From a virus (lineage: Duplodnaviria > Heunggongvirae > Uroviricota > Caudoviricetes), in the IMG/VR virus record IMGVR_UViG_2713896905_000002, positions 1-5,271 of that record: a DNA stretch of 5,271 nt; one strand, given 5' to 3'. Below are positions 987 through 3,900 of this stretch, one piece after another; the first letter of the stretch is position 1, and each line of letters opens with the position of its first letter. Made by a program: the position numbers.

Positions 987-3900
987 ACTGGACCGCCACC
1001 GGGGACTCGAACCTCGCACACTCAACTTAAAGGGTTGACGCTCTTTCCTGATGAACTGGTGGCGGTTGGTGGCCCTTGCTGGATTTGAACCAGCGACCTG
1101 GCGATTATGAGTCGCTCGCTCTCACCACTGAGCTAAAGGGCCGGGCGCAGGATAATAACGTTACGAAATCAATGTTGCAAGCATTCAAGAATCACCTGGT
1201 TAAAAATTACCCTTACTTCCTCCACCAGCGCATTCACCATGTCTATCCGAGATAAGTGGCACAAAAAAACCCGCTTGTGGGCGGGTTTTGTTTGCTTTTG
1301 CCATCACGTACAAAATCGGCAAAATATCAGATTTGCATAAAATATATGCCTTTTAATCTACTTTTGCAATATTTTGCTGTGAAAATGCCGTCTTTTGTTC
1401 TGAGCGCGTTCTCGTCGTAAACAATAAAGCTTCACTATCCAGCTGATGAAAAATGTGTTTCATTGCAATCCAGTGACCAGTATATGTTTTGGACCAGTTT
1501 TTAGTTGTCACTCCCACCAGTGATGCCAGCTCTTGGTATTCATAGGTCTCACGCCCTGCCAGTTCGCTCTTCACATCCTGTGCTGCCAGCCAGATTAACG
1601 TCTTCAGGCGATCCAGTGTTTTACCTGCAATTTTTCTGGTACCCAACAGAGCCTTAAACTCGCTCCATGCCCACTGCGTTATGGCAACCTGATGCTCCCA
1701 GCGAATATTTTCACTGTAACTCCACAGCAACCATGCTTTCTGATGTTCATCGAGAGACAAAATCGCACGCCGCCATGAAGAGGTTGAAAACTCGACCGAA
1801 CTGACCAAGGCGACAGATGAACCTTTTGCGTACGACTGTTTACCGGAAATCGGCGGATTATCCAGCGTAATCATCTTGCCAGTTACCACATCCAGAATAC
1901 GCGGTTTCTTTCGTTTGTATGTACCAGTATCAAATTGTGCATGCTCCTGCCAGACTTCAAGCTGACCTTTCATTGCTCCGTTCAGGTCAGCAGTAGCTGC
2001 CATAAGTTGCTCACGAACATATTGTAAATATTGGGTATTCATGCGGCAGCTCCTTTCAGTGTTTTGGCGTAATTCTTCAGTATTTGGTAATCGGTAAAAA
2101 CAGAACCGGGGAAACGATATAAGCGCAGGCACACCCAGCGACGGCGAAGGAGTTCTGATATATAAGACTCAGACATCATTCCCCGGTTCTCCAATATCTG
2201 TTTCACTCATCATCCATAACTATCTGTAACTGCCCCCTTTGTAACAGCTCTTATATTGCTATATGGAATAGCCATAACTAATTCATTTAAAATCAATAAA
2301 TAACATTATAAAAACACAAAACACCATGCAAACACACTTTACAAAAGCACTACCACATTAAAAGTAGGTAATAAAAATTATAATAAAAATAAATTCATTG
2401 TTTATCACACATAATTATAAAACACCATATTGATTACGCCCCTTGTATTATAAATACACGTATGTAAAATACGCGCCCTATTCAAAAAAAAGGAAGACAA
2501 TAACATATGAAAAAACGTGTCATCGCTGGGGGCTTTATTGCTCTGTCATTTACCGCATATTCAGCTATCGCGGACAGCCTTGCATTATCATTAGCAAATG
2601 ATGATGCAGGGAAGTTGCAACCAATACTTAATGATATTTATGGCAATAAACATGAAAACAGAGATGATTACTCACAAGGCTTATTTCTGGGATATAGCCA
2701 CGATATATCAGACTCGAGTCAGTTATCTCTCCATATTGCGCAAGATATTTACTCTCCGTCAGGCAGTAATAAAAGACACAACACAGCTGTAACTGGAGAC
2801 AGAGCTTTTAGTGCATACACTCACACAGGTATTGAATGGAACGCCCTTGCTAATGAGTGGATTCGTTATCGATTAGGTACTGACATAGGTGTTGTTGGTC
2901 CAGACGCAGGCGGTCAGAAAGTACAAAATAAAGCTCATGAGATTATTGGTGCAGAAAAATATCATGCATGGGATGATCAAATAGAGAATCGTTACGGTTA
3001 TACTGTAAAAGGGATGCTATCCGTGACACCAAGCATAGATATTTTAGGTACTAATATTGGATTATACCCAGAAATTTCTGCTGTTAGTGGGAACTTATTT
3101 CAATATGTAGCATATGGCGCAACCATTGCCATCGGTAATGACAGAACCTTCAATTCGGATAATGGCTTTGGTCTGCTGGCTCCACGTGGTTTAATGCATA
3201 TGTCCGATACAAGCGGATTCAAATACAAGATTTTTGCAGGTATGGAAAGACGAGATGTCAATCGCAACTATACTCTCGAAGGAAAAACAATACAGACGAA
3301 ACAAACGACAGTATCGCTAAACAAAACTGTTGATGAATATCAAGTTGGCGCAACAATTGGGTATGCACCTGTAGCCTTCACACTAGCATTTAATAAAGTA
3401 ACATCAGAATTCAAGACAGGGGATGACTATTCATTTATAAATGGAGCAATCACCTTCTTTTTTTAACTGAATTGAATTCAATCAAAATAACATAAGCCCA
3501 ACAAAAACATAAAGTGCGAAATGAATGCTAGCTCCATTTATTTCGCACTATAAAAGGTTAAAAGTTGCAATAAAATAATAAAATGACTCAGTTACGAAAA
3601 CCAATAAACTGTGGCCAGTAGTGAGTCGCTCATCATCGGGCTTTTTGGCGAATGAAATTTAACTACGCTTTCGAGTCTCATGCGCCTTCTCCTTGTACCT
3701 GAATCAATGTGAGGTTTCCGCAGAACACTGCGCCAGTATCGATATACATCTGGTTGGCAAATTTGAGTGGTTTCACTGCTGGCGTATGACCAAAGATGAA
3801 CGTGTCCGCGCCTTTGATTTCTTTCACGATCCCGTCTTGTGAGTTGCTGATTCGTTCGCGATTCCAGATTACCTGCTGATTATCAACTGGCTTTCCAAAC

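What the first reader, a model, noticed from the sequence alone, without database searches (positions are those of the whole stretch)
1262..1369. Candidate PR'-like promoter overlapping the Q stop codon, followed about 50 nt later by a strong terminator (short 6S-like transcript)
The layout of Q gene, then promoter, then a terminator that Q-modified RNA polymerase must read through mirrors lambda PR'/qut/tR', but with a much shorter predicted terminated transcript than the ~194-nt lambda 6S RNA. A second promoter-like element (1152-1180) lies downstream of the terminator in front of the tRNAs. Together these predict Q-independent tRNA expression and Q-dependent lysis-gene expression.
Basis: partly seen in the sequence, partly recalled or inferred. 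Interest (0 to 1): 0.4.

Follow-up and report, generated by a model that had tools for sequence, protein, structure and literature searches.

The report
Phage-82-type late promoter, pause and terminator
This is the standard late-gene switch of a phage-82-like prophage: an always-on promoter at the end of gene Q, a built-in pause site, and a terminator about 70 bases later that only Q-modified polymerase passes, so it is real and correctly read but already a well-studied kind of element.

Summary
All features are on the minus strand. The upstream gene is a Q82-family antiterminator (PF06323, 86% identical to phage 82 Q). The promoter TTGCAA-17-TATATT (1369-1341) brackets its stop codon. Taking +1 at 1334, the transcript starts AAATCTGATATTTTGCC. 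This is identical at +1..+17 to loci whose Q protein is 100% phage 82 Q. It also matches every published 82 pR' detail: AAA start, extended -10-like pause element, GCC at +15-17, and U at the +25 pause. A strong terminator (1289-1263) gives an RNA of about 69-72 nt. That length is normal for this family, where 58 distinct relatives mostly give 51-82 nt. The promoter hexamers and the pause element are the most conserved blocks across about 20 species. The short RNA is a diverged relative of Salmonella IsrJ, a 74-nt sRNA. Rfam's isrJ model matches directly after Q82-family genes in six other species, though the window scores below its threshold. The tRNA promoter (1180-1152) keeps its hexamers in four different contexts and matches a start site reported in O157:H7 Sakai. 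No transcript data exist for this locus.

The parts
1353..2042 (-). Q antiterminator gene, Q82 family (229 aa, ATG at 2042, stop at 1355-1353)
   Evidence: Pfam PF06323 E = 2.7e-92, near full length. It is 88.9% nt and 85.7% aa identical to phage 82 Q. PF06323 is the Q82 family according to PMC9388147.
1364..1369 (-). PR' -35 hexamer TTGCAA, lying inside the last codons of Q
   Evidence: Found. It is the most conserved block, at 1.9 bits per position across 39 unique relatives.
1347..1363 (-). 17-bp spacer AAGTAGATTAAAAGGCA, which contains the Q stop codon and the presumed Q-binding element (QBE)
   Evidence: 14 of 17 positions match the spacer of loci encoding a Q identical to 82 Q. The QBE is placed between -35 and -10 in PMC4914094. 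Binding was not tested here.
1341..1346 (-). PR' -10 hexamer TATATT
   Evidence: Found. Conservation is 1.7 bits per position.
1332..1334 (-). Predicted transcription start, AAA with +1 at 1334
   Evidence: It lies 7 nt after the -10. Wild-type 82 pR' initiates at AAA (PMC5001585). The IsrJ 5' end was mapped within 2-3 nt of the equivalent position (PMC2330248).
1318..1329 (-). Sigma70-dependent pause element: extended -10-like TGaTATTTT (+6..+14) followed by GCC (+15..+17)
   Evidence: Identical to the 82-type sequence. It matches the published description of 82 pR'. TGnTATnnT is near-invariant in the family.
1309..1310 (-). Predicted pause positions +25 (U) and +26
   Evidence: 82 pR' pauses at +25/+26 with U at +25 (PMC5001585). 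The window is identical to the 82-type sequence at +22..+28.
1296..1324 (-). 5' hairpin of the short transcript (+11..+39): UUUUGCC / GGCAAAA plus an inner AUU / GAU
   Evidence: dG is -7.9 kcal/mol, z = -2.3. A hairpin sits at this position in all 19 long-class sequences, built from different stem sequences. Support is moderate.
1263..1289 (-). Intrinsic terminator tR': 9-bp stem (5 GC pairs), 6-nt loop and a U7 tract. The predicted 3' end is near 1266-1263, giving an RNA of about 69-72 nt
   Evidence: A terminator is positionally conserved in the family with 23 distinct hairpin sequences.
1152..1180 (-). Sigma70-type promoter of the tRNA cluster: TTGCAA-17-TATTAT, with a start near 1148-1145
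   Evidence: Found. The hexamers and the 17-bp spacing are conserved while the spacer and upstream sequence vary across four contexts. Sy et al. 2020 report a TSS at the equivalent place.
833..1142 (-). Four tRNA genes: CAT (called Met by ARAGORN, annotated tRNA-Ile/ileZ in RefSeq homologues), Lys-TTT, Thr-TGT and Gly-TCC
606..632 (-). Weak terminator-like element (CCGC-UUUU-GCGG followed by U6) between the tRNAs and the holin gene
   Evidence: dG -6.6 kcal/mol, z = -2.0. Its function is inferred.
325..540 (-). Phage 21-type holin S, the first late (lysis) gene
   Evidence: Pfam PF04971, E = 7e-36.
2..328 (-). Endolysin (phage lysozyme), cut by the window edge
   Evidence: Pfam PF00959, E = 4e-22.

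Best explanation
Positions 1369-1263 (minus strand) are the late-gene control cassette of a phage-82-type lambdoid prophage. Host sigma70 RNA polymerase starts constitutively at PR' (+1 near 1334). Sigma70 then re-binds the extended -10-like element at +6..+14, and the complex pauses at about +25. Without Q, the polymerase resumes and terminates at the hairpin and U7 tract, releasing an RNA of about 70 nt. When Q has been made from the early operon, it binds its site in the promoter spacer, loads onto the paused complex and makes it terminator-resistant. Transcription then runs through this terminator, the tRNA cluster and a second weak terminator into the holin and endolysin genes. A separate sigma70 promoter at 1180-1152 drives the tRNA genes independently of Q. 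What is shown here: the sequence elements, their homology to phage 82 and 434, and their conservation. What is inferred by homology from published 82 pR', IsrJ and Sakai data: promoter activity, the pause, termination and Q-dependent read-through.
For: The Q protein belongs to the Q82 family (family definition). It is 85.7% identical to 82 Q. The promoter, spacer, start and initial transcribed region align with phage 434 and with loci whose Q is 100% identical to 82 Q. They are identical at +1..+17 and +22..+28. Every detail published for 82 pR' is reproduced: AAA start, extended -10-like element, GCC at +15-17, an AT-rich stretch, and U at +25 (PMC5001585). Across 58 unique Q82-family loci from E. 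coli and 19 other genome loci, the promoter spacing is 17 bp in all but one, which has 18 bp. The TGnTATnnT element is near-invariant, and 54 of 58 have a terminator ending between +51 and +119. Information content peaks at the -35 (1.9 bits), the -10 (1.7) and the pause element (1.6), against 0.6-0.8 bits at +18..+32. The terminator is strong. Terminators in the family keep their position while their sequence turns over, with 23 different hairpins. In vivo support comes from a homologue. Gifsy-1 isrJ carries the same cassette and gives a 74-nt RNA by primer extension and Northern blot (PMC2330248). Rfam isrJ hits above its gathering score start about 16 nt after the Q82-family stop codon in six further species. 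For the tRNA promoter.
Against: There are no transcript data for this locus. Consensus promoter matches are not rarer than chance in this AT-rich window (13 found, 8.9 expected). The spacer that should hold the QBE differs from the 82-type at 3 of 17 positions and Q is only 86% identical, so cognate Q-QBE recognition is assumed rather than shown. The authentic 82 pR' sequence could not be read from a paper, because no supplements were held and a full-text search for pause-region sequence strings found no phage paper. It was therefore inferred from loci with an identical Q. The window's RNA scores below Rfam's isrJ threshold (24.5 against 37 bits). The exact coordinate of the Sakai tRNA start site was not available to me.
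Confidence: 0.88

Rival explanations
1. The short RNA is not just a by-product of the switch. On this reading it is a trans-acting, Hfq-associated small RNA of the IsrJ/StxS kind, made constitutively in lysogens, and its conserved 5' hairpin plus terminator form the functional molecule. This adds to the best explanation rather than excluding it.
For: The IsrJ locus is the same cassette. [quoted passage not shown] StxS, from another PR'-tR' pair, is a proven Hfq-dependent sRNA (PMC7547250). A 5' hairpin is kept at the same place by different stem sequences in all 19 long-class variants.
Against: The region between the pause element and the terminator is the least conserved part (0.6-0.8 bits). 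The short class, including phage 434, lacks the 5' hairpin altogether. Per-sequence z-scores are modest (-0.65 to -3.4). RNAalifold found no consensus structure on the MAFFT alignment. No target or Hfq data exist for this variant.
Confidence: 0.25
2. The TTGCAA at 1364-1369 is mainly half of a CII-type site (TTGC-N6-TTGC on the + strand, 1364-1377). On this reading it serves an antisense paQ-like promoter that damps Q expression, as annotated in the phage 434 record, rather than acting as the PR' -35.
For: The phage 434 record annotates the homologous bases as a CII binding site and paQ -35. TTGCAA is its own reverse complement, and TTGC recurs 10 bp away on the + strand.
Against: The second TTGC repeat is not kept at N6 spacing in several divergent loci, while TTGCAA-17-TATATT, the AAA start and the pause element are kept. 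In Gifsy-1 the cassette sits after anrP, with no Q coding sequence upstream to be antisense to, and it still produces IsrJ in the PR' direction. The two functions could coexist.
Confidence: 0.05
3. The promoter-like match is incidental. On this reading the hairpin is simply the terminator of the early operon that encodes Q, and late genes and tRNAs are expressed by other means.
For: Consensus promoter matches are common here, and a terminator after the last gene of an operon is ordinary.
Against: Homology and element-level conservation tie the site to the biochemically characterised 82 pR'. The sigma-dependent pause element has no role in this scenario, yet it is near-invariant. The IsrJ 5' end maps to the predicted start in a homologue.
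Confidence: 0.04
4. The element at 1180-1152 is not an active promoter, and the tRNAs are made only by Q-dependent read-through from PR'.
For: It is only a 9-of-12 consensus match. In Stx phages the tRNAs lie within the late transcript.
Against: Homology among four different genomic contexts begins abruptly at the -35. The hexamers and spacing are kept while the spacer varies. dRNA-seq in Sakai reports a primary start that appears to drive the downstream tRNAs.
Confidence: 0.12

Closest known systems
Phage 82 late-gene control region (Q82, 82 pR', QBE, sigma70-dependent +25 pause, downstream terminator)
   Same: Same Q family, at 86% aa identity. Same promoter hexamers and 17-bp spacing overlapping the Q stop codon. 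Identical +1..+17, comprising the AAA start, TGATATTTT and GCC. Same U at +25. A 5' hairpin followed by a terminator, giving an RNA of about 70-78 nt.
   Different: 3 of 17 spacer positions differ. The bases at +18, +21 and +29..+31 differ. The terminator hairpin is the CCCGC/GCGGG type seen in phage 434 rather than the GCCCGAGG/CCTTGGGC type. tRNA genes follow the terminator.
Phage 434 late region (OL657226)
   Same: Q82-type Q at 87% identity, the same promoter, and a similar AAACCCGC...GGGTTT terminator.
   Different: In 434 the terminator starts at +28, giving an RNA of about 53 nt with no 5' hairpin. The pause element is TGGTATGTT with GTA at +15-17. There are no tRNAs downstream. The record annotates the -35 bases as a CII/paQ site and does not annotate PR'.
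IsrJ sRNA of Salmonella Gifsy-1 (Rfam RF01393)
   Same: Same promoter (TTGCAA-17-TATATT), same start and pause element (AAATCTGATAT), the same two-hairpin layout and a similar length, 74 nt against about 70 nt. It is encoded in a prophage with a Q82-family antiterminator.
   Different: The window's RNA scores 24.5 bits against a gathering score of 37. Its 5' hairpin uses GCC/GGC rather than GTCG/CGAC, and its terminator differs. In Gifsy-1 the cassette is separated from antQ by the isrK-orf45-anrP insertion.
Lambda PR'/qut/tR' and 6S RNA
   Same: Same logic: a constitutive late promoter, a QBE in the spacer, a sigma70-dependent promoter-proximal pause, a terminator, and Q-dependent read-through.
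   Different: The Q protein family is unrelated (PF03589). The pause is at +16/17 rather than +25. The terminated RNA is 194 nt rather than about 70 nt.
StxS sRNA and the tRNA promoter of Stx prophages (O157:H7 Sakai Sp5)
   Same: A PR'-tR' short transcript made during lysogeny. An ileZ-type tRNA cluster downstream has its own promoter, TTGCAG-17-TATTAT, at the same distance from the tRNA as in the window.
   Different: Sp5 carries a different Q gene (435 bp, against 690 bp here) with a different promoter. The primary transcript is 258 nt and is processed to 74 nt. Its tRNA set is Ile-Arg-Arg, whereas the window has Ile/Met-Lys-Thr-Gly.

Membership tests
Q82-type late control cassette (phage 82 pR'/QBE/pause/terminator) | A Q82-family (PF06323) antiterminator gene lies immediately upstream | tested here: met
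   Pfam E = 2.7e-92 over 216 of 220 model positions. 85.7% aa identity to 82 Q.
Q82-type late control cassette (phage 82 pR'/QBE/pause/terminator) | A sigma70 promoter overlaps the 3' end of Q and is homologous to 82 pR' | tested here: met
   TTGCAA-17-TATATT. It aligns with 434 and 82-type loci. The hexamers are the most conserved blocks. Promoter activity itself was not tested.
Q82-type late control cassette (phage 82 pR'/QBE/pause/terminator) | A Q-binding element between -35 and -10 that is bound by the cognate Q | not testable with these tools
   The spacer is 14 of 17 identical to the 82-type. The QBE location comes from PMC4914094. No binding assay or Q82 structure is available, and a PDB search found no match.
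Q82-type late control cassette (phage 82 pR'/QBE/pause/terminator) | An extended -10-like sigma70 pause element placed to give a pause at +25/+26 | tested here: met
   TGATATTTT at +6..+14, GCC at +15-17 and U at +25, matching PMC5001585 and identical to 82-type loci. Pausing itself was not assayed.
Q82-type late control cassette (phage 82 pR'/QBE/pause/terminator) | An intrinsic terminator shortly downstream, followed by late (lysis) genes | tested here: met
   Hairpin and U7 at +46..+72. Holin and endolysin lie downstream.
Q82-type late control cassette (phage 82 pR'/QBE/pause/terminator) | Q-dependent read-through of the terminator | not testable with these tools
   This needs in vitro transcription or reporter assays with and without Q.
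IsrJ sRNA (Rfam RF01393) | The covariance-model score reaches the family's gathering threshold of 37 bits | tested here: not met
   24.5 bits over the full model, window 1265-1337 minus strand. Relatives L108, L101, L095, L087, L088, L102 and L096 score 38-100 bits.
IsrJ sRNA (Rfam RF01393) | Transcribed from the Q82-type promoter, with a 5' end at or near AAAUCUGAUAU, and ending at an intrinsic terminator about 75 nt later | tested here: met
   The sequences are compared. The match is at the sequence level only, with no RNA data for the window.
Lambda 6S RNA / lambda-type PR' | A lambda-family Q (PF03589), a pause at +16/17, and a terminated RNA of about 194 nt | tested here: not met
   Q is PF06323, not PF03589. 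The pause element is positioned for +25, and the RNA is about 70 nt.
Phage ileZ-type tRNA cluster with its own promoter | Conserved sigma70 hexamers at a fixed distance upstream of the first tRNA, independent of the upstream context | tested here: met
   TTGC(A/G)(A/G)-17-TATTAT is kept in the window, 606R7, PPompW, Stx2 phage 1717, Sakai Sp5, MS20674, ATCC 43896 and w264. A start site is reported in Sakai.

The most novel reading that the evidence does not exclude
The terminated PR' transcripts of Q82-family prophages, Salmonella IsrJ and this window's 70-nt RNA may form one widespread family of constitutively made lysogen sRNAs. They share a 5' end that is fixed by the pause element, and most have a conserved 5' hairpin. 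If so, IsrJ's reported virulence effects would be a property of a phage late-promoter by-product, and E. coli prophages (887 of 5426 complete genomes hold most of this region) would carry diverged versions that could act in trans as StxS does.
Probability: 0.2. Interest if true: 0.5.

Novelty: new member of a known kind. Interest (0 to 1): 0.22.

Why it matters
As it stands, this is a correct annotation of a textbook regulatory switch in a prophage, and it is useful mainly for annotation. Public records of close relatives leave PR' unannotated: the 434 record labels the -35 bases as a CII/paQ site, and other records call a hypothetical ORF across the terminator. Two points may be of wider use. 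First, the Rfam family isrJ, known as a Salmonella virulence-associated sRNA, is by sequence the terminated leader of a Q82-type late promoter. I did not find this stated in the papers I could read, and it reframes how IsrJ expression should be interpreted. Second, the family offers natural variants for studying Q82, the one Q family without a solved structure. These variants comprise short and long classes, 23 different terminators, and a hairpin that either is or is not present between the pause site and the terminator.

Tried and rejected
1. I looked for the authentic 82 pR' sequence in paper supplements, but none were held. A full-text search for the pause-region sequence strings gave only an unrelated C. 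elegans primer. The older Roberts-lab and Plunkett papers are not held. I therefore used loci encoding a Q 100% identical to 82 Q as a proxy.

2. RNAalifold on the +1..+42 region returned no consensus structure. MAFFT had placed the GCC/GGC and GTCG/CGAC stem classes in different registers. I replaced it with per-sequence folds against dinucleotide shuffles, which give only moderate support.

3. Sub-threshold Rfam matches to the Phe, Leu and Trp leaders, OrzO-P, RNAI and sroH over 1260-1376 were rejected as generic matches driven by the terminator. isrK was also rejected. In Gifsy-1 it is a different RNA with its own TTGACA promoter directly after antQ, and it overlaps Rfam C4/c4-a1b1 hits.

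4. The 40-aa and 54-aa ORFs crossing the terminator (1200-1322 minus strand, 1256-1420 plus strand) were not pursued as genes. They span the conserved non-coding cassette.

5. The Pas sRNA preprint and the AgvB/AsxR papers were checked for this locus. They describe other positions in prophages.

6. A PDB sequence search with Q found nothing.
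Full report
**What is in the window.** All genes relevant to the finding run on the minus strand. In order they are ninF, ninG, a metallophosphatase, a small YlcG-like ORF, and a 229-aa Q gene (ATG at 2042, stop at 1355-1353). An LpxR gene lies on the plus strand among them. After Q comes the region of the finding, then four tRNA genes (1142-833), a phage 21-type holin (540-325) and the start of an endolysin. Q belongs to Pfam PF06323 (E = 2.7e-92), which the literature defines as the Q82 family (PMC9388147). It is 88.9% identical in DNA and 85.7% in protein to phage 82 Q, 87% to the phage 434 Q and 67% to Gifsy-1 AntQ.

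**Checking the observation.** On the minus strand, TTGCAA (1369-1364) and TATATT (1346-1341) are 17 bp apart, and the Q stop codon lies in the spacer. Seven bases after the -10 the sequence reads AAATCTGATATTTTGCCGATTTTGTACG. At +46..+69 (1289-1266) there is a 9-bp hairpin with five G-C pairs, and a run of seven T's spans 1269-1263, of which 1269-1266 form the 3' arm's four A-T pairs. The hairpin with its tail folds at -14.5 kcal/mol (z = -3.3), and none of 200 shuffles folds as well. A caveat applies to the promoter as a bare consensus match. The same scan found 13 promoter-like sites in the window against 8.9 +/- 3.1 expected, so the pattern alone proves nothing.

**Why it is more than chance.**
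- The segment from the Q 3' end to about +14 aligns with phage 434, and the whole region aligns with several E. coli phages.
- I fetched 99 further Q82-family loci, 80 from viral contigs and 19 from other species' genomes whose Q proteins are 58-69% identical to the window's.
- After removing duplicates there were 58 distinct downstream sequences. Every one has TTGC(A/G)(A/G), a 17-bp spacer (18 bp in one case) and a TATATT-like hexamer.
- Most then start at AAA and carry TGnTATnnT at +6..+14 (a few have AG in place of TG). In 54 of the 58 the first intrinsic terminator ends between +51 and +119.
- Information content is highest at the -35 (1.9 bits per position), the -10 (1.7) and the +6..+14 element (1.6). 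It is lower in the spacer (1.3) and the Q coding sequence (1.3), and lowest at +18..+32 (0.6-0.8).
- Terminators keep their position while their sequence turns over: 23 different hairpins occur among 41 unique transcripts.

**Identification with the phage 82 system.** The Roberts laboratory describes the following for 82 pR' (PMC5001585):
- Wild-type 82 pR' initiates at AAA.
- Its pause-inducing element is closer to TATAAT than lambda's and carries an extended -10.
- Positions +15-17 are GCC, and an AT-rich stretch follows.
- The pause is at +25/+26, with U at +25 and no G after it.

With +1 at 1334, the window reproduces each of these points. Two fetched loci (L061, L067) encode a Q protein 100% identical to 82 Q. 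Their downstream sequence therefore serves as a proxy for authentic 82 pR'. It is identical to the window at +1..+17 and +22..+28, and at 14 of 17 spacer positions. The QBE of Q proteins lies between the -35 and -10 (PMC4914094).

**Transcript length.** The predicted terminated RNA is 69-72 nt. Within the Q82 family it is normal. A short class, which includes phage 434, ends at +51..+55. A long class, which includes 82-type loci (+78) and this window, ends at +69..+82. The window combines an 82-like initial region with a 434-like CCCGC/GCGGG terminator.

**Link to IsrJ.** A permissive Rfam scan gave sub-threshold but full-length matches of isrJ and isrK across exactly 1337-1264. The isrJ consensus begins uguAaauCUGAUAuC, which is the Q82-type start plus pause element.
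- In Gifsy-1 the gene order is ninG, ylcG-like, antQ (Q82 family), isrK, orf45, anrP, isrJ, tRNA-Arg, then the lysis genes.
- The isrJ locus reads TTGCAA-17-TATATT, then AAATCTGATATC, a GTCG/CGAC hairpin and a terminator, immediately after the anrP stop codon.
- IsrJ was mapped by primer extension and Northern blot as a 74-nt RNA (PMC2330248).
- From the first A to the last U the Gifsy-1 sequence measures 72 nt. The 2-3 nt difference is within mapping error, or is what AAA slippage would add.
- At Rfam's gathering threshold, isrJ also hits six other species at locus positions 2206-2285, directly after the Q82-family stop codon at 2188-2190.

IsrJ is therefore, by sequence, the terminated transcript of a Q82-type late promoter. 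This supplies in vivo evidence that such cassettes fire and terminate as predicted. The window's RNA scores 24.5 bits against a threshold of 37, so I treat it as a diverged relative and not as a family member. I did not find the IsrJ/PR' connection stated in the papers I could read. Sy et al. list phage 82 among phages that make short antitermination-regulated RNAs, and they discuss IsrK in that light.

**The tRNA promoter.** TTGCAA-17-TATTAT (1180-1152) ends 10 nt before the mature 5' end of the first tRNA. In eight sequences with four unrelated upstream contexts, similarity begins abruptly at the -35. The contexts are a Q82-type terminator, Q933-type regions in Stx2 phages, a DNA methyltransferase gene, and a terminator abutting the -35. 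The hexamers and 17-bp spacing are kept while spacer bases vary. [quoted passage not shown] In Sakai Sp5 the TTGCAG-17-TATTAT element is at the same distance from ileZ2. I could not see the exact coordinate of their start site. Downstream of the tRNAs, a weak terminator-like element (CCGC-UUUU-GCGG-U6, 632-606) precedes the holin gene. This fits a Q-independent tRNA unit followed by Q-dependent lysis genes, but it is an inference.

**A 5' hairpin.** In the window, +11..+39 folds as UUUUGCC/GGCAAAA with an inner AUU/GAU stem (-7.9 kcal/mol, z = -2.3). All 19 long-class variants fold a hairpin at this place using different stems: UGCCA/UGGCA, GUCG/CGAC, and UGCUGCC/GGCGGCA. The short class has none. 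Individual z-scores are modest, and RNAalifold failed on the MAFFT alignment, so support is moderate. The 3' arm is not yet transcribed at the +25 pause, so the hairpin cannot contribute to that pause. It may insulate the terminator hairpin from upstream sequence, or stabilise the released RNA. Both ideas are speculative.

**Verdict.** The finding is real and correctly interpreted. It is a new sequence variant of a well-characterised kind, the phage 82-type late control cassette. The region is common: 887 of 5426 complete E. coli genomes hold at least 80% of 1100-1420, and 43 records match at 99% identity or more. Promoter activity, pausing, termination efficiency and Q dependence at this locus all rest on homology.

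Noticed in passing
L108 (Gifsy-1, NC_010392.1) 2601-2710; L087, L088, L095, L096, L101 and L102 at about 2206-2285: The Rfam family isrJ (a Salmonella virulence-associated sRNA) coincides with the terminated transcript of Q82-type late promoters. In six other species it starts about 16 nt after the Q82-family stop codon. In Gifsy-1 the cassette is displaced from antQ by the isrK-orf45-anrP insertion. I did not find this stated in the papers read.
   Followed up: partly
L108 (Gifsy-1) 1785-1983: The isrK region directly after antQ also hits the Rfam families c4-a1b1 and C4 antisense RNA. This suggests that isrK-orf45-anrP is a P1-type c4/icd/ant-like antirepressor module inserted between Q and its late promoter.
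   Followed up: no
window 1364-1377, + strand: TTGCAATATTTTGC forms TTGC-N6-TTGC, the CII-binding consensus, and overlaps the palindromic PR' -35 hexamer. The phage 434 record annotates the homologous bases as a CII site and paQ -35. PR' and an antisense paQ may share these bases.
   Followed up: partly
window 1296-1324, minus strand: A hairpin at +11..+39 of the short transcript spans the predicted pause site. Different stem sequences maintain it in all long-class Q82 cassettes, and it is absent from the 434-type short class.
   Followed up: partly
window 703-773, minus strand: A long inverted repeat with arms of about 16 bp (UUAUGAAUGAUCGC...GCGAUCAUUCAUAA) lies between the tRNAs and the holin gene. 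It folds at -26.3 kcal/mol, z = -4.8, and 0 of 200 shuffles fold as well. Its function is unknown.
   Followed up: no
window 781-829, minus strand: An 11-bp inverted repeat (AGTCTTTCAGT ... ACTGAAAGACG region) lies immediately after the 3' end of tRNA-Gly. It is possibly a processing or termination structure.
   Followed up: no
window 606-632, minus strand: A weak terminator-like element, CCGC-UUUU-GCGG followed by U6 (-6.6 kcal/mol, z = -2.0), lies about 65 nt upstream of the holin start codon. It could end the Q-independent tRNA transcript.
   Followed up: partly
window 989-1065, minus strand: ARAGORN calls a tRNA-Lys (TTT) here, but the Rfam tRNA model does not reach its gathering score. 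There is only a 20-bit tRNA-Sec match. By eye the D-arm looks atypical, so this may be a non-canonical or decaying tRNA.
   Followed up: no
window 1067-1142, minus strand: ARAGORN calls the CAT-anticodon tRNA Met, but RefSeq annotates its homologues as tRNA-Ile (ileZ type, lysidine-modified). The window's tRNA set (Ile/Met, Lys, Thr, Gly) differs from the Ile-Arg-Arg set that follows the same cassette in O157:H7.
   Followed up: partly
window 2207-2506 and 2507-3466: An LpxR lipid A deacylase gene on the opposite strand is inserted between the nin region and Q, flanked by very AT-rich non-coding DNA. Phage 434 has the same arrangement. A 2026 preprint links LpxR and lambda-type Q neighbourhoods to PasD/STnc100 sRNAs, but no such Rfam hit occurs in this window.
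   Followed up: partly
window 1266-1289, + strand: The terminator hairpin is symmetric: an A-run, the stem, then a T-run. It also scores as a terminator on the + strand, so it may act in both directions.
   Followed up: no
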